Shown one piece after another: positions 1,857 through 58,512 of a stretch of 64,000 nt of DNA. Made by a program: the position numbers and the translations under genes. The stretch's first letter is position 1; every line of letters starts with the position of its first letter. Source of the stretch: Mobula hypostoma (lineage: Eukaryota); the NCBI RefSeq assembly GCF_963921235.1, contig NC_086107.1, positions 100,070,001 to 100,134,000 on the forward strand. Direction: 5' to 3'. The notes beneath the pieces are model-generated. The model ran no database searches. It worked only from the letters and a program-made list of their open reading frames with translations, and was not told the DNA's origin.

Positions 1857-3660
1857 TCAGAATCAGGTTTAATATAACTGGCATATGTCGTAACATTTGT
1901 TAACTTTATGGCAGCAATACAATGAAATACAGGATAAATAAGTATTAAAAAAACTAGGTTACATTAAGTATATATACGTCTATTAATTAGTTAAGTTAAA
2001 ATAAGCAGCGCAGAATAACAGAAATAAAAATGTAGTGTGGTAGTGTTCATGGGTTCAATCTTCGTTTAGAAATCAGATGGCAGAGGGGAAGAAGCTGTTC
2101 TTCAATCGCTGAGTGTGTGCCTTCGGGCTTCTGTACCTCCTTCCTGATGGTAACAGTGTGAAGAGGGCACGTCGTGGCTGGTGGTGGACGTCTCCTTCCT
2201 AAGGCACCGCTCCTTGGAGATGTCTTGGATACTGCTGAGGCTGGTACTATGATAAAGCTGACTAATTTTACAAGTTTCTGCAACCTATTTAGATCTCGTG
2301 CAGTACCCTCCCCCCCCCGCCCCCATACCAGACAATGATGCAGTCAGTCAGAATGCTCTTCACAGTACATTTGTAGATATTTTCGAGTGTTTTAGTTGAC
2401 AAACCAAATCTCCTCAAACTTTGAATGCAATATAGCCACTGTCTTGCCTTCTTCGTAACTGCATCGATGTGCTGTGAGCAAGTTAGGTCCCCAGAGATAC
2501 TAGTCATAGTCATAGTGATAGTCATACTTTATTGATCCCGGGGGAAATTGGTTTTCGTTACAGTTGCACCATAAATAATAAATAGTAATAGAACCATAAA
2601 TAGTTAAATAGTAATATGTAAATTATGCCAGTAAATTATGAAATAAGTCCAGGACCAGCCTATTGGCTCAGGGTGTCTGACCCTCCAAGGGAGGAGTTGT
2701 AAAGTTTGATGGCCACAGGCAGGAATGACTTCCTATGACGCTCTGTGCTGCATCTCGGTGGAATGAGTCTCTGGCTGAATGTACTCCTGTGCCCAACCAG
2801 TACATTATGTAGTGGATGGGAGACATTGACCAAGATGGCATGCAACTTAGACAGCATCCTCGTTTCAGACACCACCGTCAGAGAGTCCAGTTCCATCCCC
2901 ACAACATCACTGGCCTTACGAATGAGTTTGTTGATTCTGTTGGTGTCTGCTACCCTCAGCCCGCTGCCCCAGCACACAACAGCAAACATGATAGCACTGG
3001 CCACTACAGACTCGTAGAACATCCTCAACATTGTCTGGCAGATGTTACAGGACCTCAGTCTCCTCAGGAAATAGAGACGGCTCTGACCCTTCTTGTAGTC
3101 AGCCTCAGTGTTCTTTGACCAGTCCAGTTTATTGTCAATTCGTATCCCCAGGTATTTGTCCACACTGGCCCCCTGGATGGAAACAGGGGTCACCGGTACC
3201 TTAGCTCTCCTCAGGTCTACCACCAGCTCCTTAGTTTTTTTCACATTAAGCTGCAGATAATTCTGCTCACACCATGTGACAAAGTTTCCTACCATAGCCC
3301 TGTACTTAGCCTCATCTCCCTTGCTGACGCATCCAACTATGGCAGAGTCATCAGAAAACTTCTGAAGATTTCAAGACTCTGTGCAGTAGTTGAAGTCCGA
3401 GGTGTAAATAGTGAAGAGAAAGGGAGACAAGACAGTCCCCTGTGGAGCCCCAGTGCTGCTGATCACTCTGTCGGACACACAGTGTTGCAAGCACATGTAC
3501 TGTGGTCTGCCAGTCAGGTAATCAAGAATCCAGGAACACCCAGGAACTTGAAATTGCTCACCCTCTCCACTTCTGATCCCTCTATGAGGATTGGTTTGTG
3601 TTCCCACATCTTACTCTTCCTGAAGGCCACAATTAGCTCTTTGGTCTTGCTGACGTCAGT
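1857..3660 (-). mobile_element. Rex1/Babar LINE fragment (1857-2500 and 3533-3660) nested in CR1
   Basis: ORF 2289-2525 KKARQWLYCIQSLRRFG; (ATTCTG)n tail on the minus strand near 1857. Confidence 0.75.
2501..3530 (-). mobile_element. Young Rex1-type LINE, 5'-truncated, nested inside another Rex
   Basis: Uninterrupted 211-aa ORF 2660-3295 (LNVKKTKELVVDLRR...GQSRLYFLRRLRS); GAPQGTVLSPFLF RT motif upstream; AATAAA then (TGACTA)n tail at 2501-2532. Confidence 0.85.
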
Positions 3661-26675: not shown

Positions 26676-28120
26676 AAGGCAGCAGGTTCTGATGAATTTG
26701 TAATAGAACAAATTATCGCCCTTGAGGATTATGGAATTGAAAAACTTACTGATTTAATCAGTGACATTTATGAGACTGGAATATTACCAGAAGAGATGAA
26801 AAAAATCAGTATTTATCATTCTTCCTGGAGCAATAGAATGTGAATTACATAGGACCATAAGTTTAATGAGTCATATCACCAAGATACTTCTAAGAATTTT
26901 GATGACAAGAGCTAAAAGTAAGGTACAAGCTGAAATAGGTAAAGAACAATGTGGTTTTGTGAAAGACAAAGGTTCAAGAAATGCAATATTGATGTTAAGG
27001 ATACTATCAGAACGAGCTATTCAAATGCAAATGGTTTGTTTGTTTTATTGACTACACAAAAGCATTTGATAAAGTGAAGCACAATAAGTTATTTGAAATA
27101 TTACAGAAAACTCTAGATCTAGATTCGAAAGACCTCCACCTAATCAGAAATCTGTACTGGGAACAAACTGCTGCTGTAAGAATAAATGGAGAAGTGAGTC
27201 AGTTTACGAAAATCAAGAGAGGCATTAGACAAGGGTGTGTTTTCACCCCTGATTTGTTTAATGTGTACAGTGAAACAATATTACAAAAATAAGAGACATC
27301 TTGGGAATCAAAGTTGGCGGTGAAAACATCAATAATTTAAGATATGCAGATGACACTGTGTTAATTGCAAGTACGGAGGAAGAACTACAAAACTTAATTG
27401 ATATAGTTGTTGAAGAAAGTGCAAAGATGGGTCTACCTATCAATCGCAAAAAGACTGAATGTATGGTGATATCCAAAAAGGAGAATCCTATCTGCAGGCT
27501 GAGAATAAGCGGGGAAGACATAAAACAAGTACAGAACTTTTGCTACTTAGGAAGCTGGATGACATCAGATGGCAGGTGCGACATGGACATCAAAAGAAGA
27601 ATAGGGATGGCAAAAGACACCTGTACGATAATGAAGAGTATACTGACCAATAGTAAACTAGGCATGACAACCCGCTCAGAATACTGAAATGTTACGTTTA
27701 TCCAGTTATGTTATATGGCTCAGAATGTTGGACAATATCTAGGAACATGAGGAAACGAATTGAAGCAGCAGAGATGTGGTTTTTGAGGAGGATGCAAAGA
27801 ATATCATGGACGAAACGAATATCTAATGAAGATGTCATGAACAGAGCAAACACAAAAAGAGAACTAATGTATGAGATCATGAAAAGGCAACGTAACTTCA
27901 TTAGACATGTGATTAGGAAAGATGAGTTAGAATGCATGGTAATTATGGGAAAGATTGAAGGGAAAAAAGCAAGAGGAAGACAAAGACAGATGATGATGGA
28001 GACAGCAGCCAGAGAATTGGAAGTGAATACCAGTGAATTGATCCAGTTGACCCGAAACAGGAGTGTGTGGGCTACGCCAGTCAAAGCTCAAACTGGGCAC
28101 GGCACCTGATGATGATGATG
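26676..28120 (+). mobile_element. RTE-clade LINE, 5'-truncated, lightly decayed RT ORF
   Basis: Consecutive ORFs: RTISLMSHITKIL, QCGF...RNAI, KRGIRQGC, NNLRYADDTVLIA, LYGSECW, GKIEGKKARGR; (GAT)n tail; 9-bp TSD ATCTAAGAT at 26667-26675 and 28121-28129. Confidence 0.92.
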
Positions 28121-35487: not shown

Positions 35488-36204
35488 TTACTAATAAGTC
35501 CAGTTCAGGTTGGCGCACTGCGGGAAGAATAGAATCAAAGAATGTGCAGAAGTTGTTTACAAGAATTTTGATTGGGTTGAAGAATTGTCATTGTGAGGAA
35601 CAACTGAGATTGTGGTGGTTTTATTTTGGACAAAGATGTCTGAGTGAAGATTAAATATTGATGTACAAAATCATGAGAAGCCGAAGCAGAGCTAACAGAA
35701 GATTTGTTTTCTTAATGGAAGGATTGAATACCTAGGAGAGTTGGCTTCAAATGGAAGGCTTATTAGGAAATTGAAAATGAGTGGTAGGAGACAGAAACTC
35801 TCAGCTCATTCAAAGCATATCTGGACCAGCACTTAGCTTGCTCGGGTTGAATAGATCTGGGATAAAATGGAAAATGATCGTAAAGGCTTAGGTTATGCTT
35901 AATGCTTAAAGATTATTGTCCTGAAACACTAACTCTTTCTTTATCTGTGAATGTTTTGTCATTTTTAATTTTTTTTTCTCGCATTTAAGCATCTACAATG
36001 TTTTGCTTTGGGATTGAGTTGTGCAGTGAAATGAATTAGTTCAGATTTTGGCTGTCATTGATATGAAGGCATGTGTGTTATATATTAAAAATATCACCCA
36101 ATTTATTGGTAAGTACAAAAGATTCTGTGGAAATCTTGAACAACATATGGAAAATGCTGGAGGAACTCAGTAAGCTAGGCAAAATCTATGGAGGGGAATA
36201 ATCA

Positions 36205-36962
36205 AAAACAACAGGAATTCTGCAGATGCTGGAAATTCAAGCAACATACATCAAAGTTGCTGGTGAACGCAGCAGGCCAAGCAGCATCTCTAGGAAGAGG
36301 TGCAGTCGACGTTTCAGGCCGAGACCCTTCGTCAGGACTAACTGAAGGAAGAGTGAGTAAGGGATTTGAAAGCTGGAGGGGGAGGGGGAGATGCAAAATG
36401 ATAGGAGAAGACAGGAGGGGGAGGGATAGAGCCGAGAGCTGGACAGCTGATAGGCAAAAGGGGATACGAGAGGATCATGGGACAGGAGGTCCGGGAAGAA
36501 AGACAAGGGGGGGGGTGACCCAGAGGATGGGCAAGAGGTATATTCAGAGGGACAGAGGGAGAAAAAGGAGAGTGAGAGAAAGAATGTGTGCATAAAAATG
36601 AGTAACAGATGGGGTACGAGGGGGAGGTGGGGCCTTAGCGGAAGTTAGAGAAGTCAATGTTCATGCCATCAGGTTGAAGGCTACCCAGACGGAATATAAG
36701 GTGTTGTTCCTCCAACCTGAGTGTGGCTTCATCTTTACAGTAGAGGAGGCCGTGGATAGACATGTCAGAATGGGAATGGGATGTGGAATTAAAATGTGTG
36801 GCCACTGGGAGATCCTGCTTTCTCTGGCGGACAGAGCGTAGATGTTCAGCAAAGCGGTCTCCCAGTCTGCGTCGGGTCTCACCAATATATAAAAGGCCAC
36901 ATCGGGAGCACCGGACGCAGTATATCACCCCAGTCGACTCACAGGTGAAGTGATGCCTCACC
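36205..36962 (-). mobile_element. Young 5'-truncated Penelope-like retroelement (GIY-YIG endonuclease C-terminus plus 3' pLTR)
   Basis: ORF 36635-36960: GVIYCVRCSRCGLLYIGETRRRLGDRFAEH...EQHLIFRLGSLQPDGMN. Identical 16-bp flanks TGGAGGGGAATAATCA at 36189-36204 and 36963-36978; CpGs retained. Confidence 0.9.
36304..36339 (-). ncRNA. Minimal type I hammerhead ribozyme motif in a Penelope-like element
   Basis: Minus strand reads AGUC-CUGACGA-A-GGGU(CUCG)GCCU-GAAA-C-GUC-GACU: stem I AGUC/GACU, conserved CUGANGA and GAAA boxes, stem II, palindromic ACGU stem III, GUC cleavage triplet. Confidence 0.75.
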
Positions 36963-37839
36963 TGGAGGGGAATAATCAGTTGACTCACACCTCTTCTCCT
37001 CACCGCCCATCGCCTCACTCAGGTTTCCCTCCTCCTTCCCTGTCTTCATTGGTCCACTGTCCTCTCCTAATAGAATCCTCCTCCTTCATCCCTTTACCCC
37101 TTTCAGCTATCCCCTGCTATTTTCTTACTTCATCCCACCTCCCCCTCACCTGGTCTCACCTATCACCTGCCAGCTTGTACTTCTCCCACCCCCACCTTCT
37201 TATTTTGACTTCTGCCCCCCCTTCTTTTCTGGTCTTGACGAAGGATCTTAGCCCGAAGCATCCACTCTTTATTCCCCTCCACAGATGCTGCCTAACTTGT
37301 AGAGTTCTTCCACCATTTTGTGTGTGTTACTCAATTTACTAATTCTGCTATCATCTTCTTTTGGCTGTTGCATTGCAAAGCTCTAGAATGCTTTACCCAA
37401 ACCGCTTTTTCTTTCCTTCAAAACATAACAAATCTTTTTATCTATCATCTGCCAATAATGTGGCATGCTGCCCTCTATTAATTGACCTGATACCTTCTGT
37501 TATATAGTTTGGTGCCTACAGTTGGCATCTTGGATTTTTTAAAATTACAGATACATTATGAATGGAAATTGTTCAAATCTGAGTAGCTGCAATATTTGCT
37601 GAGTTTCTAACATGCCATCATCGGAAAGCTTCCACGTCATTGTTATACAGCACAGGAACAGGCCCTTCGGCCCACCACGTCCATGCCGGCATTCAAGTAC
37701 CCATCTCTATCATGCTTATGTATTCCTTCATACCGAATAGAAAAGGTAAGTAGCTGATCTTGTCAAGACAACTCTTATCTCTTTTCCGCATGAAGGTGAT
37801 CCTTATTACGACTAAAGCAAGTCAGAAACTGCCTATAGC

Positions 37840-38400
37840 TTCATTTCGCGCAATCCTTCTCCTGCCGGCCAGCATTGGTTGGGCAAGCTGTCGCTCAAAT
37901 CCTGCGCCAAAAGCACTGCGGCACCGGTCGCTATCCGGGGGCCGCATCTGACGGATGCCAGCGAGCGCGGCGGACGTATTCCATTCGTCAGCAGCGCTGT
38001 CGCTCAAGTGGGCCGTCTTCCTACTGGGCAGCGTCCGGGCTGGCGCGGGACGTTGTCGGCAGGGCGGGGTTGGGCCGCTGAGCTGACGGCTGATGCGCGA
38101 GCTCCAGTGTGTGAGCCTGAGCTAGCGCGAGGCGGGCGGTGCGAGGGACGCCGAGCAGCGGAAGGCTTGAATTTTAGTTTTCTTGAAATAAAAATACACG
38201 ATTCATAAGCAAAATTCGCTGTTTTCACACCGCCTAATCCCACAGGGAGAGAGGGCATTGGAAAATCGCGTGGATCGCGGAGGTAAGAGGTAAAAATTAA
38301 TGTTTAAGTTTTCGGTCAGTTGAGGAGTAGTCGGAAAAGGGAGTGAAACCAGGAAAAGAATCAGACACCGGCTGGGCCGGCGCGCTCGCCACAGGCAACT
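37840..38400 (+). promoter_or_regulatory. myh9: CpG island, probable myh9 promoter
   Basis: Only non-repeat CpG-dense segment in the window. GC box GGGCGGGG 38062-38069; inverted CCAAT (ATTGG) 37874-37878; Inr-like TCCAGT 38103-38108; ETS-like CGGAAGT 38436-38442 and AP-1 TGAGTCA 38465-38471 just downstream; no TATA box. Confidence 0.8.
38106..38282 (+). other. myh9: Probable non-coding exon 1 (5'UTR) of myh9; start approximate
   Basis: Strong donor GAG|GTAAGA at 38282/38283; no ATG between 38106 and 38282; vertebrate MYH9 has a non-coding exon 1 and a long first intron. Implied intron 1 is 38283-55729. Confidence 0.65.
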
Positions 38401-44075: not shown

Positions 44076-44155
44076 CAGGGGTTCCCAACATGGGGCCCAT
44101 GGATACCTTGCTTAATGGTATTGGTCCATGGCATAAAAATGGTTGGGAACCCCTG
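44076..44155. mobile_element. 80-bp hAT (Charlie-like) MITE
   Basis: Perfect TIRs CAGGGGTTCCCAAC / GTTGGGAACCCCTG; left flank CTCTAGCG resembles the NTCTAGAN target. Confidence 0.75.
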
Positions 44156-44831: not shown

Positions 44832-45330
44832 CGTGTCCCTATGGAATACCTATTTGTTCAGGAGACAACTATAAATATTGGAATCTGGAACAGCAAGTAA
44901 TGCACTGGAGGAACTCAGTGGATTGTGCAGCATTTGTGGGATTTTGAACTGAAACATTGACTTTTTCTTTCCTCTCACAGGTGGTGTGTGACCAGCTGAA
45001 CATCTCCAGATCATTGAAATAATTTTTAATGACTAACTTAATCCCAATTCCAATCTATTTTAACCAACTGATCTCTCATCCTTGCAGTAATCTTCACTAC
45101 TGGAACCAACACAGAGTTTGAGGTTATAACTTGGTCATGCTGAACTGAGGGGTCAGATACACTTTGTATCTGACTCTCAATTTCATGTCTGTCATGGCTA
45201 GTGTGTATATATAGCATGATCCACATTCCTTTTTAGCCATCACCCTGTTATTTACATGACCATTTGTTTCATTGTGGCTGACAAATTATCTTGTCAACAG
45301 TTGTTAACTGAATTGGTAGCAGGAATGTTA

Positions 45331-46290
45331 TAGTCAGCCCTCCTTACCCGTGGGGGATTGGTTCCGGGACCCCCCGCCGCGGATACCAAAAAACGCGGAT
45401 GCTCAAGTCCATTATATGATTATGAAGACACGTAGTCCTCTTTTATTGTCATTTAGTAACGCATGCATTAAGAAATGATACATTATTTCCTCTGGTCTGA
45501 TATCACAAAACACAAGACAAACCAAGACTGAAAAAACTGACAAAACCACATAATTATAACATATAGTTACAAACAGTGTAACAAATACCATAACTTGATG
45601 AAGAAGTCCGTGAGCACAGTAAAGTTCAAAGTCTCTCAAATGTCCCACATCTCACGCAGACGGGAGAAGGAAGAAAAACTCTCCCTGCCATGCCGACCAC
45701 AATCCGACTCTGAGTCATCCGAAAACTTCGAGCTCTGATCAGCTCTCCGACACCGAGTACTGAGCACCATCTCTGTCCAAACGATTCGACCTCCTTCTCA
45801 GTCGCCAAAAGCAGGCAAGACCAGGGATTTTGAGGCCTATCCTCCAAAAGATTCCCGACCACATAGTAACGACAGCAGCGAACGGGCGTTTCAGAAATTT
45901 CTCCAGATGTTCCTCTGTGCTTTCACGTCCATTCTCCATCAAATCAGAATTGTCCATGGCCCCTATTTAACAGATATGATATCATTTTTCATCGGAGGGC
46001 TGCGCACACGCAGGCGTGCCGCCATCTTGTCCTCCCACCATAAAATGGTGTAGTACTTGCATATAACCTATGCACATCCTCCCATATACTTTAAATCATC
46101 TCTAGATTACTTATAATCCCTAATACAATGTAAATCCTATGTAACTAATTGTTATACTGTATTGTTTAGGGAATAATGACAAGAAAAAATGCTCAAACAA
46201 CGAGTGCTGGAGAGAGAACTTCTGGGTTTTCCCGATCCGCGGTCGGTTGAATCCGCGCATGTGGAACCCGCGGATAAGGAGGGCCGACTG
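45331..46290 (+). mobile_element. MER2-like TcMar-Tigger MITE interrupted by an insertion
   Basis: 24-bp TIRs with 4 mismatches (TAGTCAGCCCTCCTTACCCGTGGG / CCCGCGGATAAGGAGGGCCGACTG); TA at 45329-45330 and 46291-46292; internal sequence resembles recalled MER2. Confidence 0.85.
45417..46039 (-). mobile_element. Young non-autonomous retroelement nested in the MITE
   Basis: Minus strand starts ...CAAGATGGCGGC (YY1-like) and ends AATAAA...CATAATCATA; CpG-rich; no coding motif; MITE sequence rejoins across it. Confidence 0.65.
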
Positions 46291-46824
46291 TATATACATT
46301 GGGTGTTAATGCTAAGCTGTCATTCATCCCAAGGTTTAGAAGGTAGCTAGACTCCCAGTCACCACCTTTTCAGTGATAACAAAATCTAAATTGGCGCCCA
46401 ACCTAACAACTGAAATTGTTTACTAGATGTATCTAGATACCTTTACCCCTCTCTGCTCTTATTGTGTGCAGCTCATTAACTGACTAAAATTCTCTGTAAT
46501 AAAGGTGCATATGTAGGTGTTTGCTTGGGAGTTGATTGATCTCCACTGATCCCCATATGTTATACTACCTGTCCTATTATCTCTATATAAAGCCATTTGT
46601 ACAAATAATTTTGTTGTTTTTGTTCATTTAAATTTTGCTAGTTTACCTAGGTTATTGTAGTTTTCCTCCCATGTAATTTGCACTACTGTCCAAGTTTAAA
46701 GAGCATAAGCACAAGGGTATTCTAACCAAACATCTGTATATTTAGCAATAATTGCTGCTCTGTTTCCTTGCTCTGTAGATCCCCATTGTTCTACTTTAGT
46801 GTCAAATTTTAGAAAGTTAGAAAT

Positions 46825-47135
46825 TGGTGCAGCAGTTCATTTAATAGCTCTAGCTATCCATGTTCAATCATGATCTACAGTGCTATCTGTGGAGTTTGCG
46901 TGTCCTCTCTGTATCACCACCGAGGTTTCCCTGGGTTTCTGTTTTTTTCCAGATGTGTAGAGTGGTAGGGTAATTGGCTGCTATAAGTGATGTGCAGCTG
47001 AGTGGTAGAACCAGGATGAATTAATCAGATGGGGAAGTGGTGAAACCATGTTTGTGAGAAAATAAGGGAATGAGATTGCTATATGAGCTGGTATTAGACT
47101 TGGTAGATTAAAATAGCCTGCAGTTATGTTGTAAG
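46825..47135 (+). mobile_element. V-SINE (HE1-like) relic
   Basis: GTGGAGTTTGCGTGTCCTC...GGTTTCC...GGTAGGGTAATTGGC. Confidence 0.55.
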
Positions 47136-47169
47136 AAAATAAAGGTAATGATATCCATAGTCTGACAGG

Positions 47170-50100
47170 TAAGGACAGTGATTACAAACACAAAGGCATA
47201 ATTCAAAGCTCTTTAACTGAATGCATATAGCATTTGTAAAAGGTAGATAAATTGATAGTATAAATAGATACATTCAAATAACTTTAACCAAAGTCATGAT
47301 TGCACAGTAACCAAGGTTAAGTATTTAATATTTCTGGATATTTACAGATAAGTAAAATGGAATAGGAGATGGGCTGGCCCTGATAGTAAAGTGTGGAAGA
47401 GATTAGAGTACAGTCTATTTGGGTAAAACAGCAAGGAACAGAAAATGTTGATGGCAGTTGCATAAATGTCCCCCAAATAGTAAGTGAATCAGTATGTGAG
47501 TAAATTAGTTGTGTGTAATGAGGTTAACACAATAATAATGTAGACTGAGCGAATCAAATTAGTTGTAATATGGCGGATGAAGTTGTGAAATTTAAACGGA
47601 ATTCTAGATCGGTATCCAGAGGAATTGATAAAGAGCCAGGCTATTTTAGATCTGTGTAATATGAAAAGGTTAATTGAGGATCTGTAGCTAAAGGGCCTTT
47701 AGGGAACAATGATCATAATATGACTGGACTTTATACAAAGATTGAAAACGATTTAGTTCATTCTGAGTAAAGCAAACTGAAGGCTTGTCTATAGCAAGTT
47801 GTGATGCATTGAAGGTATGACTGTATGAGCAAAGACTATTGTTCAAATAATTAGCATCTCGTAGATTTAAGAAAATATCAGAACTCAGAAGGTCAATACT
47901 TTAATGATAGGGAAAATAAAAATAGGTTTTGGGAAGTATAAAAGGAAATTTTAAGATCTACTATAGTGATATTAAAACAAAAGATTAGCTAAAGTTAATA
48001 TGGGTCCCTTAAGGAATATGAAAAAAAAAATAACTTGTTGCAGGTGAGGAAGTGGTAGGGAAACCAAATAATTTTTTTTTCTGCTTTCCTGGGAGAAGGT
48101 ACAGAAAGCATCTTGGCAAAATATTGGAGAACTACAAGTGTGGAGCAAATGAGCTCAAGGCAATAAGCTTTTAGAGGGGAAAAAAATGGTATTGAAAGGT
48201 GATTTAAAAAGTGGTATTAAAAGGTAAAAAATCCCCACAGTCTATGTCCAAGAAGTTTTGAAGGAGATGGCAGTGGAAATAATGTGTTGTCATCTTTCAA
48301 ATTTCCATAGATTCCGGAAGATAGCAAGTGTAACTCCACATTTTAAGAAAGGTGGCAGATGACTTTTTTAGGTACCTTCAAATACGAAACTATGTTAACC
48401 AGAGTTGTAGATATACAGACCTATCAACAGTAGAATTAGAATTTTTCAAGATTCTGAATTCGGCTTGCAGTTCAATACCTAGTAAATCAGTTTCTCGCCT
48501 ATATAATGCACTCTCCCATGCTAAAAATGTAAATACACTGTATATTAAAGAGGAGGAGAAAGAAGCGGGGTTGGTACTTTCAGAGGAGGCTTGGGGGAAA
48601 ATCTGCAGCTTTCAATGGTCCTCGACTAATTCTTTGACTTGGAGAGAACATTGTTGGAAAAACATTATAAGATACTTCAAGACCCCATATCAGGAAAAAT
48701 ACAAAGATATAAATGTGATGTGTTGGAGAAGGTGCGGCTCCAAGGAGGCGAATCATTTTCATATTTTCTGGGATTGCCCTAAATTAAGTCTATTTTGGGA
48801 AGGTATTCATAGAACATTAGTTAAGGTACTTAGGTCCCAGATACCTCTGAACTTTGAGACGCTCTATTTGGGGCATGTATTGTTCCTTGAACAGAAGGAA
48901 GATATAAAGTTGCTGCAGGCCCTCTTAGCGGCAAGTAAGAAATCAATCACTAGAAAATGGCTAAATCCAATACCACCTACATTAGAAGATTGGTACGAAA
49001 TTATCTTGGAAATATTTAAAATGGAAAAGTTGACTTACTCCCTGAGAACTCAAAAAGAAACATTTTATCAAATCTGGAATAAATGGATTGAATATATAAC
49101 CCCAATGCGAGCAGACTTTAGATGACTCTCCTAATGATTTATATTGCTCTTCTCATCAACACAGTAATATTGCTAACGTAAACACCCCTAGTCTAAATGT
49201 TTGTTTTTTTTTGGAAAATAGAGAATTAACACAAGTAAAGGGAAAGATTTGGGAAAGGGATAAAAAAAAGAAAAAATTAAGTAAATAAGTACATAGGGAT
49301 TGGATAATTATGTCTGCAGGCAGGAACAAGCATGAACAAATTGGGATATAAACACCTACAATGGTTGGTATATAGGCTTGTATGCAACATTTTGGACCAG
49401 TGGAAATGGTCCAGAAGGGTTGTATGGAAACTATTATTACCATTTTTCTTAACAACTAATTTCATTACTTAGCCTAATAGGTTAGATTTACCACAGTACA
49501 TAATTATCTATTTAAATGTTTATTTTCCTTTTATATCATCTCAATGTGTACTTAAGAATGTATAAATAATCGTAGTTTTATACATATAAAAAAATGGAAA
49601 AGGTTATATGTGTGAAAAAAGTACATGATAATTGTGAATTCCTTATCCAAATAAAAATAAAATTTAAAAAAAAGGTGGCAGAAAGACAACAAGACCAGTT
49701 AGCTTGCTATCAGTAGTAGGGAGACAATGCTAGAATCTGTTATTACTGTTAAAAGGTTTAGATGGAAAATAATAACATTAGGCAGAGTGAACATGGCTTT
49801 ATGAATTGGAAATCACATTTGATAAATTTTTTTGGAGAATTTTTTGAGCTTGCAACTAGTGGAATGGGTAAGGTGAGTCAGTTGTCTTATGAGCGAGTCA
49901 GTTCATAAAGTGCCTTATGAAATTTAAACACTGATGTGTACCCTGCGTTGGTGAATGGTTACTGGACAAAAACAATTGGGTAATTTTTCAGTGGGAAGAC
50001 CAATAGAATATGCCGATAGGTTAGTGCTGAGGGCAATGTATATCATTGATTTGGATGAAGGAATCAAGTTTGCTGATGATACTAAGTAGGTGGTAATGTG

Positions 50101-50490
50101 TTTGTGAGGAAGATACAGAGACTGCAGGGGAATACAAGCAGGTTAGCAAGGATATAAACATATGAAACATAATGTGCATTTATTCACTTCTGTAGACAGA
50201 AAGATGAAGCATTTTAAGTGAATTATTTTAAAAATGTTGGTATTCAAATGGGCTAGAATGTTCTTAGAAATTGAAAATTAATGTGCAAATTCAGCAAGAA
50301 ATTAGGAAGGAAATGTTATAAGAGGCAATGAGTACAAGAGTGCAGGTAACTTGTTGAAATTAGGGACTTTGTGAACCAGCACTTGAAATATTGTGCAGAT
50401 TTTTCATATTTTTACCTAAGGAAAGATGTTTATGATAGAGTGAGTGCACCTGATGTTAACTAGGTTGACTCCTGCATTGCTGGGTATATT
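47170..50490 (+). mobile_element. Old, heavily decayed CR1 LINE hosting the L1 insertion
   Basis: ASVTPHFKKGG...RPVSLLSVVG split by the L1; KFADDTK remnant at about 50066. Confidence 0.7.
48360..49670 (+). mobile_element. Young 5'-truncated L1 LINE (ORF2 C-terminus, 3'UTR, A tail)
   Basis: Open frame to 49125 with FFRYLQIR and zinc knuckle CWRRC...H...C (HIFWDCP); TSD AAAGGTGGCAGA at 48348-48359 and 49671-49682; AATAAA before the A tail. Confidence 0.92.
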
Positions 50491-50672
50491 GCATGAGGAG
50501 AGATCAAGTTAAATTGTCAGTCATACATGAATACCAATTAATACAGCCAAGTGAAATAGCATTACTCCAGGGCCAAGGTGCAAAACACAGTACCAACAGT
50601 CATAACAGCACAAGGCACATAAAGCACATACAAGACAGCAGTAAAATAGTGAAAAACATTAAAAAAAAATTG

Positions 50673-51226
50673 CAATACTGCAAAAGTTTTGGACATTTAT
50701 GTGTATGTATGTATATATGTATGTATTTGTAAAAAAAAAAAGCTAGGGTGCCCGAGATGTTTGCACAGTACTATATTTGTCAACGTGGAGCGGAGAGTGA
50801 GTTTGTAAATCGACAGGAACTAAGAATGTTGGGAATAGTGAGGGTGGAATGCCGGAGGAGGGGTGTGGGACAAGTGACAGGAGCAGGACGTGGTACAGGT
50901 GCACGCACATCCAGCCCTGAGACACCAGGCAAGGTTATTTAATTCTAAACAATTGGCATATTGATCATTCTAGAAAGTCTCCCTGGTGCTTGCCGCTCCC
51001 TTCCTCTTTTCCCAACCATAATTCCCCTGTTCCTGCCCTCTTCCAACTCTCAGTCCAAAATGAAGACCGATATCAAAATCAGGTTTATTATCGTCACATG
51101 TTATGAAATTTGTTTTTGCAGCAGCAGTACAATATATAAAATTACTACAGAACTGTGCAAAGTCTTAGACACCCTAGCGCGCGTTCGTTCTCTCTTGCGC
51201 TCTGTCAGACTTTTGCACAATACTGT
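50673..51226 (+). mobile_element. Composite Tc1-like non-autonomous element: two mini-palindromes bracketing a ~380-bp core
   Basis: CAATACTGCAAAAGT...TTTGCACAGTAC at the left and CAGAACTGTGCAAAGTC...GACTTTTGCACAATACTG at the right; core shared with 14375-14760. Confidence 0.65.
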
Positions 51227-51424
51227 ATGTGGAGAGATGAAGCAGACTGAGCTTATGCTCTCTAGAGTTTAGAACATACTCGTTTGACTGGGAAATGGTG
51301 GAATACCTTTTACTGCTGGAATCTTTCTGAAACAGAGGTATCAGTAGCTGTGTCATATGAACATTGGCCAAAATTATCTTTGGCTTATTTCCACTTTTTT
51401 TTTACAATTTAGTCCTGCACGTTA

Positions 51425-52538
51425 CCTCAGGGGTATGTGCTTAGCCCACTGCTCTACTCTCTATATACCCATGGACTGTGTGGCTAGGCATAGCTCAAAT
51501 ACCATCTATAAATTTGCCGACGATACAACCGTTGTTGGTAGAATCTCAGGTGGTGAAGAGAGGGCGTACAGGAGTGAGATATGCCAACTAGTGGAGTGGT
51601 GCCACAGCAACGACCTGGCACTCAATGTCAGTAAGATGAAAAAGCTGATTGTGGACTTCTGGAAGAGTGAGACGTAGGAACACATACCAATCCTCATAGA
51701 GGGATCAGAAGTGGAGAGAGTGAGCTGTTTCAAGTTCCTGGCTGTCAAGATCTCTGAGGATCTAACCTGGTCCCAACGTATTGATGCAGTTATAAAGGAG
51801 GCGAGACAATGGCTATACTTTGGAGTTTGAAGAGATTTGGTATGTCAACAAATACATTCAAAAACTTCTATAGATGTACCATGGAGAGCATTCTGACAGG
51901 CTGCATCACTGTCTGGTTATGGGGGGGTGGGGTGGAGAGCTACTAAACGGGACCGAAAGAAGCTGTAGAGGGTTGTAAATTTAGTCAGCTCCATCTTGGG
52001 TACTAGCTTACAAAGTACCCAGGACATCTTCAAGGAGCAGTGTCTCAGAAAGATAGCGGCCTTTATTAAGGACCTCCAGCACCCAGGGCATGTCCTTTCC
52101 TCACTGTTACCATCAGGTAGGAGGTACAGAAGCCTGAATGCACACACTCAGCGATTCAGGAACAGCTCTTCCTCTCTGTCATCTGATTCATAAATGAACA
52201 TTGAACCCTTGGACATTACCTCACCTTTTATTAATATATAGCATTTCTGTTTTTGCATGATTCAAGATACATATACTGTATAAAGTATACTGAATAAGAT
52301 TTATTATATTTCTTCTTCTATATTATGTATTGCATTGAACCGCTGCTAATAAGTTAACAAATTTCACATCACATGCTGGTGTGCCTACGGGGATCAGGGG
52401 GTATGGATCAGGGGGCGGGGTTCTGAGTTGGATGATCAGCCATGATCATAATAAATGGCGGTGCAGGCTCGAAGGGCCGAATGGCCTACTCCTGCACCTA
52501 TTTTCTATGTTTCTATGATAAACCTGCTTCTGATTCTA
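51425..52538 (+). mobile_element. Rex1/Babar LINE 3' half with a small nested CR1 tail (about 52381-52517)
   Basis: YKFADDTTVVG, LNVSKMKKLIVDF, LPSGRRYRSL; CR1 tail TTCTATGTTTCTATG interrupts GGT|GATAAACC. Confidence 0.88.
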
Positions 52539-52620: not shown

Positions 52621-54211
52621 AATGCCTATAAAAAGTATTCACCCCTTGAAAGTTTTCATGTTTTATTGTTTTACCACATTGAATCAGTGGATTTAATTTG
52701 GCATTTTTTTGACAGTGATCGACAGAAGTGACTCCGTGTCAAAATGAAAACAAATTTCTACAAATCGGTCTAAATTTATTATAATTAACACAAAATGATT
52801 GATTGCATAATTACTCACCGCTTTAAGTCAGTATTCAGTAGATACACCTTTGGCAACAATTATAGCCTTGCGTCTTTGTGGATAGGTCTCTATCAGCTTT
52901 GCACATCAGGACACTGCAACTTTTCCCTATTCTTCTTTACAAAACTGTTCAAGCTTTGTTAGATTGCATGGGGATTGTGAGTGGATAGCCTTTTTTAAGT
53001 CCAGCCACAAACTGTCAATTGGATTGAATTCTGGACCCTGACTTAACCACTCCAGGACATTAAATTTGTTGTTTTTAAGCCATTCTTGTGAGGCTTGGGG
53101 TCATTGTCTTGCTGGAAAACAAATCATCTCCCAAGTTGCCGTTGTCCTGCAAACTGCATCAGGTTTTCCTCCAGGATTTCCTTGTATTTTGCTGCATTCA
53201 TTTTATCGTCTACCTTCACAAGCCTTCCAGGACCTGCTATAGTGAACCATCCCCACAGGAAATACAGCCACCATAATGCTTCACAACATGGATGGTGTTT
53301 TTGATTATGTGTGGTTGTTTGGCTTATGCCAAACTGTGTTTAGTCTGATGGCCAAAAAGCTCAATTTTGGTTTTATTAGATCATAGAACCTTCTTCCATC
53401 TGACTTCAAAGTTTCCCACATTCCTTCTGGCAAACTTTAGCCAAGATTTCATGAGTTTTTTTTTCAACTGTAGCTTTCTTTTTGCCACTCTCTCATAAAG
53501 CTGTGACTGGTGAAGCACCTAGGCAGCAGTTGTATGCGTAGTCTCTCCCGTTTCAGGCATTGAAGCTTGTAACTCTTCCAGAGTTGTTGTAGGTCCCTTG
53601 GTGGCCTCCCTCACTAGTCCCCTTCTTACATGGTCACTCAGTTTTTGGGGACTGCCTGCTCTAGGCAGATTTACAGTGTGCCATATTCTTTCCATTTCTC
53701 AATGGTTGACTTAATTGTACTTCAAGGGATATTGAGTGACTTGGAAATGTTCTTGTATCCATCTCTTGACTTATGCTTTTCAATATCTTTTTTGTGGAGG
53801 TGCTTGGAGTGTTCTTTTATCTTCATGGTGTAGTTTTTGCCAGGATATTGACTCACCAGCAGTTAGACCTTCCAGATACAGTTTTTTTTAAACTACAATC
53901 AATTGAAACACCTTGACTGCACACAGATGAACTCCATTTAACTGGTTGTCTTCGAAAACTAATTGGCTGCACCAGTGATGATTTGGTGTCATATTAAAGG
54001 GTGTGAATATTTATGCAATCAATTATTTTGTGTTTTGTATTTATAATTAATTAGATCACTTTGTAGAGATCTGTTGTCACTTTGACATGAGTCTTTTTCT
54101 GTTGACCAATGTCCGAAAAAAAGCCAAATTAAATCCACTGTGCTTCAGTGTTGTAAAACAATAAAACATGAAAACTTCCAAAGCGGGGGTGAATACTTCT
54201 TATAGGGACTG
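52621..54211 (-). mobile_element. Tc1-like DNA transposon with long (~200 bp) IR/DR-type TIRs and decayed transposase
   Basis: 52621-52825 is the inverted match of 53995-54211; TA at 52619-52620 and 54212-54213; inner and outer (AG)TATTCACC-like repeats; minus-strand WSDETKIELFG-like and QGPEFNPI-like remnants. Confidence 0.85.
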
Positions 54212-55749
54212 TAGTTCTCCTAAAAAAAACCTTCTGTCATCCTAGTATCAAATATAGACCCTCCTGTTAAAGGAAGCTGTTTGTTCTAGTTTACTTTGTT
54301 CATGGCTCTCATAATGCACTTGATCAATTGTTACTAAGGGAAGTGAACATGGAATAATTCTGATTAAGAATAATATATCAGATTTTAACAATCAGCTCAA
54401 TTGTTAATGCTCATTAGGTGCTTAATACCATTTTTAGCATATAATGTTGATTGTAACTTCAGCATTTCTTGGTCAGGGATGTTAGATTTTGAATGAGACA
54501 TGAAAAAAAGCTGATCTCCAAGTTGTCTGAAGTTCACTGGGGTTGAAAAGGTTGGGGTGGGCATTAATGTCACAAGTAAGTTTTAGAGCAGCTGCTTTAT
54601 AAGATAGATAGATATATACTTTATTGATATATCTATCTATCTTATAAAGATATCTTATAAAATGTAATAATTGTTGTTTGACAAGGAAGTGGTCTTTTCT
54701 TTCCATAAGTCTGTTTATTTCTGAGAACAATGTTTCGGTCTGATTTTGTACTAGTATCAAAATTTCGGACACGCTGTTAAGTTTTCTTCAAGTTCTACAG
54801 CTTAACATTGTTCAGCAGTTTATTGACAGTAAGCCTGACTAAATGTGAATTTGGGACAAAACCATTTCATATTATTCCATTTTCATGAGGCTTCTATTAT
54901 AGTTCTGAATGTGGAAAGTAGAAACCACTTGAGTAACATTTGAATTGTCCATGATACCTAATGTTGCAAATTAGAATGTATATGCAATTATTGTTTTCGA
55001 AGACTGAATTTTTGGCAGGCTAAATTACCTGAAGCATTCTTAAATAGAAGGATTTCACAATGACACAAAAATTCATCTTCCTTTCAATTAATGTTTTAAA
55101 GCACTAGATTTGTACTACATATTTTAACAATTTGTATTGCAAATTGAAGAATTGATAAATAAATATTTTATAAAGTTCTAAATTTGTTCCTAGTCCTGAA
55201 TATTAAAATTTTATTCACGGCTAAGTGGAATTTTTCTGCTTTCTACTCATTTGCATTCATTTTCCTTTTCCCTTGAATTTATGTAGGTTAAGTTTGAGCC
55301 CAAGGCAATTATCTATATATAGCACTGCTGTGCATTGGACAATGTTTGGTTATATTTATGGGTTACACACTGGTGCACAGCAAGCTTATATTGGGGTTGG
55401 AGGGCTGAGAGGAAGTTGGAATAGTATGGTTTAAACTCACTAGCCCAGCATCTGAAATGCTGTGCCGCCCATCATAATGAACAAAGGATATGATGATGCA
55501 TTACTTTTCTGTATATCAGTTACAAACTAAGAACAGCGTACACATCAATTTCAATTATATTTCATGTTTATGTGATTCTCTGTGCAGCGTCACACTTTTG
55601 CAAAGATGCATTTCATTGTTTGAATAAGCAGTTAAAATTTACCTTTTCCTTTTCTGTAAAATTTTGGTTATTTCTAAAAGTGTAGTTTCAACATCTGAGT
55701 CACCTGGATATCTTTTTTTTTAATTGCAGGCTTCCAATAAGAGGACAAA

Positions 55750-56082
55750 ATGGCTCAACGGGATGCAGACCGGTATCTCTATGTGGACAAAAATATTATC
55801 AATAATCCATTGGCACAAGCTGACTGGGCAGCAAAAAAATTAGTGTGGGTGCCCTCAGAACGCAATGGCTTTGAGGCTGCCAGTCTCAAGGAGGAGATTG
55901 GTGAAGAGGCACTCGTTGAATTGGTGGAGAATGGCAAGAAAGTTAAATTTAACAAGGATGACATCCAGAAGATGAACCCACCCAAATTCTCCAAAGTTGA
56001 AGATATGGCAGAACTGACTTGTCTGAATGAAGCTTCTGTACTCCATAATTTGAAAGAGCGTTACTACTCAGGACTAATCTAT
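55750..56082 (+). CDS. myh9: Non-muscle myosin heavy chain IIA, first coding exon (aa 1-111; N-terminal SH3-like region and start of motor domain). Exon spans 55730-56082 including 20 nt of 5'UTR
   Basis: Translation [36 protein letters not shown]...[38 protein letters not shown] matches the MYH9 N-terminus as recalled (MYH10 and MYH11 begin differently). Polypyrimidine tract plus TGCAG acceptor ends at 55729; ATG in AAAATGG context; phase-0 donor GTAAGC at 56083. Confidence 0.95.
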
Positions 56083-57127: not shown

Positions 57128-58512
57128 AGTAGCACAGCTAGGAGAACCACTGCTTTACAGCTTCAGTGACTTGGGTTTAGTCATGACTTTTGGTCTGTGA
57201 TTGTGACTTTGCAGGTTGCTCTTATTGCCTTGTGGGTTTCCTCTAGGTGCTCTGGTTTCCTCGCATGTTGCAAAGGCTTGTAGGTTGTTGGGTTAATTTG
57301 GCACCAAATAGCACATTGTGTATATGTGAGTGATTGAATCTGGGGAGTTGATGGGAACAGAGAGGAAAGATTAAAATGGGATTGTGTAGGATTAATGTCT
57401 AAGCGGACATTGCTTCGTGGATCCAGAACTGGCTTGCCCGCAGAAGGTAAAGAGTGGCTGTAGATGGGTCATATTCTGCATGGAGGTCGGTCACCAGTGG
57501 TGTGCCTCAGGGACCCCTACTCTTCGTGATTTTTGTAAATGACCTGGATGAAGAAGTGGAGGGATGGGTTAGTAAATTTGCTGATGACACAAAGATTGGA
57601 GGTGTTGTGGATAGTGTGGAGGGCTATCAGAGGTTACAGTGGGACATGGATAGGATGCAAAACTGGGCTGAGAAGTGGCAGATGGAGTTCAACCCAGATA
57701 AGTGTGAGGTGGTTCATTTTGGTAGGTCAAATATGATGGCAGAACATAGTATTAATGGTAAGACTCTTGGCAGTGTGGGGGATCAGAGGGGTCTTGGAGT
57801 CCAAGTCCATAGGACACTCAAAGCTGCTGCGCAGGTTGACTCTGTGGTTATGAAAGCATACGATGCATTGGCCTTCATCAATCGTGGGATTGAGTTTAGG
57901 AGCTGAGAGGTAATATTGCAGCTATATAGGATCCTGGTCAGACCTCACTTGGAGTACTGTGCTCAGTTCTGGTCGCCTCACTACAGGAAGGATGTGGAGA
58001 ACATAGAAAAGGTGCAGAGGAGATTTACAAGGATGTTGCCTGGATTGGGGAGCCTGAATAGGTTGAGTGAACTTGGCCTTTTCTCCTTGGAGTGACGGAG
58101 GATGAGAGGTGATCTGATAGAGTTGTATAAGATGATGAGAGGCATTGATCGTGTGGATAGTCAGAGGCTTTTTCCTAGGGCTGAAATGGCTAGCACGAGA
58201 AGGCATAGTTTTAAGGAGATGTCAGGGGTAAGTTTTTTACATAGGGAGTAGTGAGTGCGTGGAATGGGCTGCGAGTGACAGTGGTGGAGGCGGATACGAT
58301 GGGGTCTTTTAAGAGACTCCTGGACAGGTACATGGAGCTCAGAAAAGTAGAGGGCTATGGGTAACTCTAGGTAATTTCTAAGGTAAGGACATGTTCGGCA
58401 CAGCTTTGTGGGCCAAAGGGCCTGTATTGTGCTGTAGGTTTTCTATGTTTTGTTTCTAATGTGAATGCATGGTGGGCTAAGGGCCTGTTTCTGAACTGTT
58501 TGATTCTATGTA
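57128..58512 (+). mobile_element. V-SINE (57128-57398 and 58463-58512) interrupted by a CR1
   Basis: GTGGGTTTCCTCTAGGTGCTCTGGTTTCCTC V-domain-like motif; CR1-type tail GGGCTAAGGGCCTGTTTCTG resumes after the insertion. Confidence 0.6.
57399..58456 (+). mobile_element. Young 5'-truncated CR1 LINE
   Basis: ORF 57454-57906 SGVPQG...SKFADDTKIGG...FNPDKCEVVHFG; TTCTATGT tail; possible TSD TAATGT at 57393-57398 and 58457-58462. Confidence 0.92.

What the first reader, a model, noticed from the sequence alone, without database searches (positions are those of the whole stretch)
45329..46292. MER2-like Tigger MITE in a probable cartilaginous fish: horizontal-transfer candidate
Seen: TA-flanked MITE with 24-bp TIRs, about 340 bp once the nested insert is removed, and many intact CpGs in a CpG-depleted background, so it looks recent. 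From memory, long tracts (GGGGGATTGGTTCC.GGACCCCCC, GGATGCTCAAGTCC, TACTTTAAATCATCTCTAGATTACTTATAAT, GTTATACTGTATTGTTTAGGGAATAATGACAAGAAAAAA) nearly match the mammalian MER2 consensus. Inference: such similarity in non-coding sequence is implausible under vertical descent since the shark-mammal split.
Basis: partly seen in the sequence, partly recalled or inferred. Interest (0 to 1): 0.7.

Follow-up and report, generated by a model that had tools for sequence, protein, structure and literature searches.

The report
Mammal-like mini-transposon in a ray
A dead 336-base jumping element in an intron of a ray's myosin-9 gene closely resembles a repeat of the mammalian MER2 type, which points to an old transfer of this transposon lineage between distant animals, a kind of event already reported for its family.

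Summary
The element is real: TA-flanked, 24-bp terminal inverted repeats (20/24; none in 20 shuffles), 336 bp once a 622-bp antisense retro-type insert with a 2-bp duplication is set aside. It lies upstream of the first coding exon of MYH9; that exon's best hits are rays. No MER2 consensus was obtainable, so identity to MER2 was not computed. Indirect support came from 7 mis-predicted database peptides that read through relatives of the element. One spans both halves in register without the insert, about 345 nt, the length of MER2. One ends in a 9-mer recurrent in human protein isoforms. The ray matches these copies better than they match each other (71% vs 59%, 56% vs 50% of residues; biased by the search). 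A middle block of about 30 bp is not shared, so it is a sister of MER2, not MER2 itself. 'Recent' is overstated: all CpGs sit at the ends and the two TIRs differ by four transitions. Four of 19 sequencing-run holders were examined; all share the host's LINE families. Horizontal transfer is likely, its route unknown. Tigger transfers between placental mammals and sharks are already published for other families.

The parts
45329..45330 (.). Left TA target-site duplication
   Evidence: Sequence
45331..45354 (+). Left 24-bp TIR; first base T instead of C, two CpG-type transitions relative to the right TIR
45331..45417 (+). Left half of the MITE (87 bp) with CpG-rich subterminal CGCGG-type units
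   Evidence: matches P0128 residues 17-39, two-frame score 83 against a maximum of 60 in 1,466 control windows
45418..46039 (-). 622-bp nested insert, read as a non-autonomous non-LTR retro-element in antisense: CpG-rich head at the 46039 end, AATAAA and a short-repeat tail at the 45418 end, 2-bp AT duplication. Family not identified.
   Evidence: absent from the uninterrupted relative P0128; no Pfam hit in 7 of 7 open frames of 55 aa or more over it; the class is inferred
46042..46189 (+). AT-rich core of the MITE, no CpG, shared with the database relatives
46190..46216 (+). Middle block not shared with the database relatives in any of three frames; the ray element is about 9 nt shorter here
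   Evidence: 1 of 63 residue pairs identical; local scores 5-17 in all frames, spacing 29 codons against 32 in 4 of 7 copies
46217..46290 (+). Right subterminal region with repeated CGCG-type units, shared with the database relatives
46267..46290 (-). Right 24-bp TIR beginning CAGTC on the minus strand
   Evidence: CAGTC/CAGTC ends with TA duplications are listed for Tigger elements in PMC9219625 Table S1 and PMC7386202 Table S1
46291..46292 (.). Right TA target-site duplication
55750..56082 (+). First coding exon of host MYH9 (context). Acceptor ends at 55729; a CpG island at about 37.7-38.6 kb with a donor at 38283 is the likely first exon, which puts the MITE in intron 1 (inferred).

Best explanation
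A dead non-autonomous Tigger (pogo superfamily) element. A Tigger transposase supplied in trans recognised its 24-bp TIRs, cut it out elsewhere and pasted it into a TA in MYH9 intron 1, duplicating the TA (mechanism from established Tigger/pogo biology; anatomy shown). It then decayed and was hit by a 622-bp retro-element in antisense (order shown by nesting; class inferred). It is a sister of the mammalian MER2-type MITE: both ends and the core are shared, a middle block of about 30 bp is not, as expected if the two MITEs are separate internal-deletion products of one Tigger lineage (inferred). That lineage most likely entered rays and placental mammals by horizontal transfer, probably in separate events and possibly through third hosts; direction and route are not known. 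No host function is indicated.
For: TIR/TSD anatomy beyond chance. TA duplication and short TIRs define Tigger (PMC9219625). Length 336 bp against 345 bp for MER2 (PMC1914374 supplement). 7 of 9 phmmer hits to a 49-aa open frame of the right half are frames through relatives. P0128 is collinear over both halves with no insert: 47/86 residues on the right half, of which 19/34 in a part that was not in the query, and a left-half score above all 1,466 controls. Ray-copy identity exceeds copy-copy identity (72/102 vs 174/297; 97/173 vs 258/513) and the ray has the plurality residue at 12/12 and 15/20 columns. By simulation this puts the ray roughly 4-10% from the family consensus in the shared blocks (rough). 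P0127 ends in a 9-mer that recurs in unrelated human protein isoforms. [quoted passage not shown] Tigger transfers between Eutheria and Chondrichthyes are reported.
Against: The MER2 consensus was never aligned; the name rests on length, on recall and on one primate-type marker in 1 of 7 copies. The hits were selected for likeness to the ray frame, which inflates ray-copy over copy-copy identity. All 4 holders laid share the host's LINE families, so no distant non-mammalian holder was shown. Shark mutation rates are very low (7e-10 per generation), which weakens both the 'young' and the 'too similar' arguments on the ray side. No autonomous partner was found: 0 of 356 open frames in the window hit DDE_1, HTH_Tnp_Tc5 or CENP-B_N. 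None of the 5 chondrichthyan Tiggers of PMC9219625 Table S1 has this TIR.
Confidence: 0.65

Rival explanations
1. The MITE itself, not just its autonomous parent, moved between the mammal and ray lineages, and the middle block was replaced afterwards in one of them.
For: Near-equal length (336 vs about 345 nt) and collinearity over about 300 nt, including an in-register junction.
Against: The middle block is unrelated in all three frames, which two independent deletions of one parent explain simply. Transfer selects for working transposase (PMC7070016 abstract), so a MITE could only ride along with its parent.
Confidence: 0.15
2. The database look-alikes are mostly not mammalian or not MER2; the element is a ray Tigger MITE with relatives in unnamed animals and the MER2 label is a recalled resemblance.
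Against: P0127 joins the look-alike to a 9-mer recurrent in human isoforms. P0128 spans about 345 nt, the MER2 length. Pairs of copies share the same middle block (scores 59, 50, 28), so they look like one family.
Confidence: 0.09
3. Vertical descent: a Tigger lineage persisted from the jawed-vertebrate ancestor in both lines, with likeness kept by slow chondrichthyan rates and by constraint on transposase-binding ends.
For: Low shark mutation rate. Tigger occurs in nearly all vertebrate classes. Constraint could explain the ends.
Against: Likeness covers the AT-rich core, not only the ends. MER2 activity is placed near the divergence of placental orders.
Confidence: 0.08
4. Assembly chimera or human contamination.
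For: No second copy in the window; no run held all 19 words (best 0.53).
Against: Clean TA duplication and a nested insert; CpG-rich ends unlike human MER2 copies (median 18.5% diverged); a middle block unlike the primate-type copy; two unique pieces 0.65 and 1.6 kb downstream are matched without a difference by run X1, which also holds 47% of the right half's words.
Confidence: 0.03

Closest known systems
MER2 / MER2B (human non-autonomous Mariner/Tc1-class, Tigger-type elements of Repbase; PMC5753468, PMC1914374)
   Same: Short non-coding TA-flanked TIR element; 336 bp against 345 bp; collinear with a database copy of about 345 nt; shares ends and core with a family of which one copy has a primate-type tail. 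That the family is MER2 is inferred from length and from recall.
   Different: Middle block of about 30 bp not shared and about 9 nt shorter; host is a ray; ends keep their CpGs whereas human copies are a median 18.5% diverged; this copy is split by a retro-insert.
Tigger family of the pogo superfamily (Gao et al. 2020, PMC7386202; Diaby et al. 2022, PMC9219625)
   Same: TA duplication, TIRs within the reported 8-33 bp, CAGTC-type end as listed for some Tiggers; reported transfers between Eutheria and Carcharodon and Scyliorhinus.
   Different: No transposase here. The TIR differs from all 5 chondrichthyan entries of Diaby Table S1 and from the 1 of Gao Table S1. Those surveys used transposase queries and kept long hits, so MITEs were outside their scope.
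MER6/MER6A (PMC6887750)
   Same: Mammalian Tigger-type MITE with links to non-mammalian vertebrates; a retro-element nested in a MITE; transfer from a fish lineage discussed.
   Different: In MER6 the composite of MITE and SINE spread as a unit; here the insert is seen in one copy only and is not shown to have spread.

Membership tests
Tigger-type MITE (pogo superfamily) | TA target-site duplication | tested here: met
   TA on both sides
Tigger-type MITE (pogo superfamily) | Short TIRs (8-33 bp) of CAG-type | tested here: met
   24 bp, 20/24; right end begins CAGTC, left has T at base 1; range and ends
Tigger-type MITE (pogo superfamily) | Short and non-coding | tested here: met
   336 bp; no Pfam hit in the 11 frames of 55 aa or more overlapping 45329-46292
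Tigger-type MITE (pogo superfamily) | Many interspersed copies in the host genome | tested here: inconclusive
Tigger-type MITE (pogo superfamily) | Autonomous partner with CENP-B_N / HTH_Tnp_Tc5 and DD29-36D transposase sharing the TIRs | not testable with these tools
   None in the window; rest of the genome not available
MER2 (Repbase/Dfam) | High nucleotide identity to the MER2 consensus over its length | not testable with these tools
   No tool gave the consensus; only a peptide-level proxy
MER2 (Repbase/Dfam) | Length about 345 bp | tested here: met
   336 bp against 345; the 9-nt difference maps to the middle block
MER2 (Repbase/Dfam) | Same internal sequence throughout as the MER2-type copies | tested here: not met
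   Middle block 46190-46216 unrelated to the 7 database copies; those copies are only presumed to be MER2
Horizontally transferred element (three criteria as listed in PMC9219625) | Element more alike between hosts than non-mobile DNA | tested here: inconclusive
   Proxy estimate of 4-10% from the family consensus, biased; no host-gene nucleotide control available
Horizontally transferred element (three criteria as listed in PMC9219625) | Patchy taxonomic distribution | tested here: inconclusive
   4 of 19 holders laid on the flank, all kin of the host; names coded; only the top 20 rows are given
Horizontally transferred element (three criteria as listed in PMC9219625) | Element tree at odds with host tree | not testable with these tools
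   No named nucleotide copies obtainable

The most novel reading that the evidence does not exclude
Rays carry a little-decayed sister of mammalian MER2 together with a still recognisable autonomous Tigger that is the parent of both MITEs. One transposon lineage would then have invaded placental mammals, rays and (by unchecked earlier notes of this scan) an arthropod within one broad wave, and the slow-evolving ray genome would preserve a near-original copy that dates the wave and names the transposase that spread MER2.
Probability: 0.3. Interest if true: 0.58.

Novelty: new member of a known kind. Interest (0 to 1): 0.36.

Why it matters
Transfers of transposons that involve mammals are rare (under 3% of 975 events involve mammals or birds, PMC7070016), and transposase-based surveys miss MITE families. 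A ray sister of MER2 would add a mammal-linked case, would make the origin of a human repeat with over 8,000 fragments testable, and would point to ray genomes as the place to look for its parent. It changes no mechanism: transfer of Tigger elements between these groups is already reported.

Tried and rejected
Whole-genome copy count: no genome held. Looking for named copies: exact motif in viral contigs and metagenome contigs gave 0; a shorter motif gave 6, 4 and 1 loci, 11 of 11 without extension beyond chance; blastn of the right half against plasmids and phages gave 0; the motif is in no held paper. Rfam, ARAGORN and TRF found nothing on the element. Word-indexed protein searches with the 49-aa open frame found no candidate. 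P0121 and P0122 (2 of the 9 phmmer hits) were dropped before all counts: no tblastn match to the window. Pfam gave no family for 8 of 8 look-alike peptides. The ESM Atlas gave only low or unnamed hits. The sigma-70 scan is irrelevant to a eukaryote and at chance level. No consensus splice donor and no sense-strand AATAAA in the element, so no sign of exonisation. Runs X2 and X4 show little or no cover on the unique flank 46400-48235; lack of cover is not used as evidence. Word shares convert to 2-4% divergence for a single best copy, but many copies and 19 words make this weak. Smit and Riggs 1996 is not held. PMC10162687 has none of six terms.

Full report
1. Observation. The stretch is bounded by TA at 45329-30 and 46291-92, with inverted repeats just inside. 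The repeats match at 20 of 24 positions and no further. Such TA-bounded pairs never arose in 20 dinucleotide shuffles of the window; the real window has 17, of which the other 16 fall in longer inverted repeat copies or were not followed up. The four differences are all transitions, two at CpG positions, and one changes the first base of the left TIR. CpG observed/expected is 0.98 in both halves and 0.85 in the insert, against 0.08 and 0.15 in the flanks. Outside the CpG island at about 37.7-38.6 kb, the three highest of 375 windows of 340 bp lie on this locus. All 17 CpGs of the MITE are in its ends, many in repeated subterminal units; the 149-bp core has none. So the copy is younger than its surroundings but has decayed, and 'recent' is relative: a shark mutation rate of 7e-10 per generation has been measured (PMC10587355, passages).

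2. Insert and host. The insert runs 45418-46039. On the minus strand it has a CpG-rich head, an AATAAA near its end and a short-repeat tail. I read it as a non-autonomous non-LTR retro-element; this is inference and its family was not identified. It has no other copy in the window. A 2-bp AT duplication gives a MITE of 336 bp. The window's only host coding exon found is the first coding exon of MYH9 at 55750-56082. Its best hits among the 120 listed are Hypanus sabinus (96%), Pristis pectinata and Rhinoraja longicauda (95%), ahead of bichirs, Heterodontus and birds (92-94%). The host is therefore most likely a ray; an earlier unchecked note of this scan calls it a devil ray. A CpG island with a splice donor at 38283 and an acceptor ending at 55729 place the element in intron 1 (inferred). 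None of 356 open frames of 55 aa or more hit a pogo/Tigger transposase domain.

3. Is it native and repeated? No genome is held. Of 20 runs listed, 19 in 9 studies hold 26-53% of the 19 sampled words of the right half; none holds all. I laid 4 of the 19 on the downstream flank 46400-52500, not on the element. X1 has two pieces identical to unique flank DNA (234 and 215 bases), so it is the same or a very close species. All four runs cover the flank's LINE-type repeats; the longest X2 and X4 pieces on the 48.4-48.9 kb repeat differ at 80 and 36 letters. All four are thus kin of the host at some distance. This argues against contamination and fits a family spread among rays, but it shows no distant holder and does not count copies.

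4. Is it MER2-like? No tool supplied a MER2 sequence: motif scans, blastn and a full-text motif search were empty or chance. From papers: MER2 is a Mariner/Tc1-class element (PMC5753468, passages), 345 bp long, with 8,377 human fragments at a median 18.5% divergence, active near the divergence of the placental species compared (PMC1914374, passages and supplement rows). An indirect test worked. A naturally open 49-aa frame of the right half, searched against 1.84 billion proteins, gave 9 hits. Two do not map back to the window and were dropped; 7 are mis-predicted frames through relatives of the element. None has an organism name. P0128 runs over the whole element: 47 of 86 residues match the right half, 19 of 34 in a part that was not in the query; residues 17-39 match the left half better than any of 1,466 control windows (83 against at most 60); the codon spacing across the junction equals that of the 336-bp form; its best score against the insert is 40 in one of six frames; and it spans about 114 codons, about 345 nt. 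This shows that an uninterrupted relative exists and fixes the insert's boundaries. P0127 ends in a run of phenylalanines and a 9-mer that recurs in unrelated human protein isoforms (PMC12839037, passages). That this 9-mer is the antisense Alu frame is my recall; the paper does not mention Alu. So at least 1 of 7 copies looks primate-derived.

5. How close? Over the first 15 residues of the frame the ray matches the copies at 72 of 102 pairs, the copies each other at 174 of 297; over the last 25 the counts are 97 of 173 and 258 of 513. The ray has the plurality residue in 12 of 12 and 15 of 20 columns. Simulated neutral divergence maps these to about 15% vs 22% and 24% vs 27% at DNA level, which puts the ray about 4-10% from the family consensus. 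The hits were selected for likeness to the ray and for open frames, so this is biased low and rough. The nine residues between the blocks match at 1 of 63 pairs, and no frame of the ray's middle scores above 17 against any copy, while three pairs of copies score 59, 50 and 28 (other pairs 10-21, as expected if they lie in different frames). The ray is about three codons shorter there. The element is thus a sister of the MER2-type family, not a plain copy of it.

6. Mechanism. Insertion by a Tigger transposase in trans at TA follows from the anatomy and from the family description (PMC9219625, parts 1-4 of 7 read; PMC7386202, passages). Decay and later retro-insertion are shown by the sequence. 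Shared ends and core with different middles suggest two deletion products of one Tigger lineage (inferred). About 90% identity leaves room for only 0.1 substitutions per site, some 45 million years at the mammalian rate quoted in PMC6887750 (Discussion part 1 of 2), against a ray-mammal split of over 400 million years (recalled). DNA transposons evolve neutrally between transfers (PMC7070016, passages). Horizontal transfer is therefore the likeliest source of the likeness. It need not be direct: four unchecked notes of this scan report MER2-like relics in invertebrate or arthropod DNA, in at least one other genome; these are leads only.

7. What is known. Diaby et al. 2022 report Tigger transfers between Eutheria and two chondrichthyans. 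The five chondrichthyan elements in their Table S1 and the one in Gao et al. have other TIRs (supplement rows and part 5 of 137; long cells are cut at 400 characters, so inner sequence was not seen). TcMar elements are expanded in skates and rays (PMC12361510, passages), and a ZB-like Tc1 is listed for one chondrichthyan (PMC9777934, passages). I found no paper on a MER2-like element in cartilaginous fishes in searches; the library lacks most subscription papers, and Repbase and Dfam were not searchable, so an entry may exist. PMC11195612 (passages) and PMC10162687 (term search) added nothing.

8. Verdict. Observation confirmed with small corrections; interpretation partly supported. A new member of a known kind: a ray sister of the MER2-type Tigger MITE, probably linked to it by horizontal transfer of the parent lineage. 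Interest 0.36; 0.58 if the parent element and a shared invasion wave can be shown.

Noticed in passing
window 52625-54206: Tc1-like remnant: about 200-bp inverted repeats at 81% identity with weak DDE_3 (E 0.003) and HTH_Tnp_Tc3_2 (E 0.008) hits on the minus strand between them; also in MYH9 intron 1.
   Followed up: partly
window 36178-37292: GIY-YIG open frame (36638-37018, minus strand, E 3e-5) between inverted copies of a common repeat, just upstream of the CpG island; Penelope-like (label recalled).
   Followed up: no
window 44076-44155: 80-bp element with perfect terminal inverted repeats (15 nt with one flanking base) of hAT type (label recalled); the flanking 8-mers do not match.
   Followed up: partly
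window 48334-49125: 263-aa open frame without a Pfam hit, resembling the end of an L1/Tx1-type ORF2 (recalled); covered by contigs of all four runs laid.
   Followed up: no
window 26999-28106, 2663-3610, 57451-57903: Reverse-transcriptase fragments of several LINE families (RVT_1 hits); the window is dense in such remnants.
   Followed up: no
window 45418-46039: The nested insert is itself CpG-rich (0.85) and non-coding, with a head and a tail but no reverse transcriptase; its family and copy number are unknown.
   Followed up: partly
P0127 residues 201-209; PMC12839037: The 9-mer that this paper proposes as a cytoplasmic retention signal sits here behind a poly-phenylalanine run in a spurious frame; by recall it is the antisense Alu reading frame, which the paper does not mention.
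   Followed up: no
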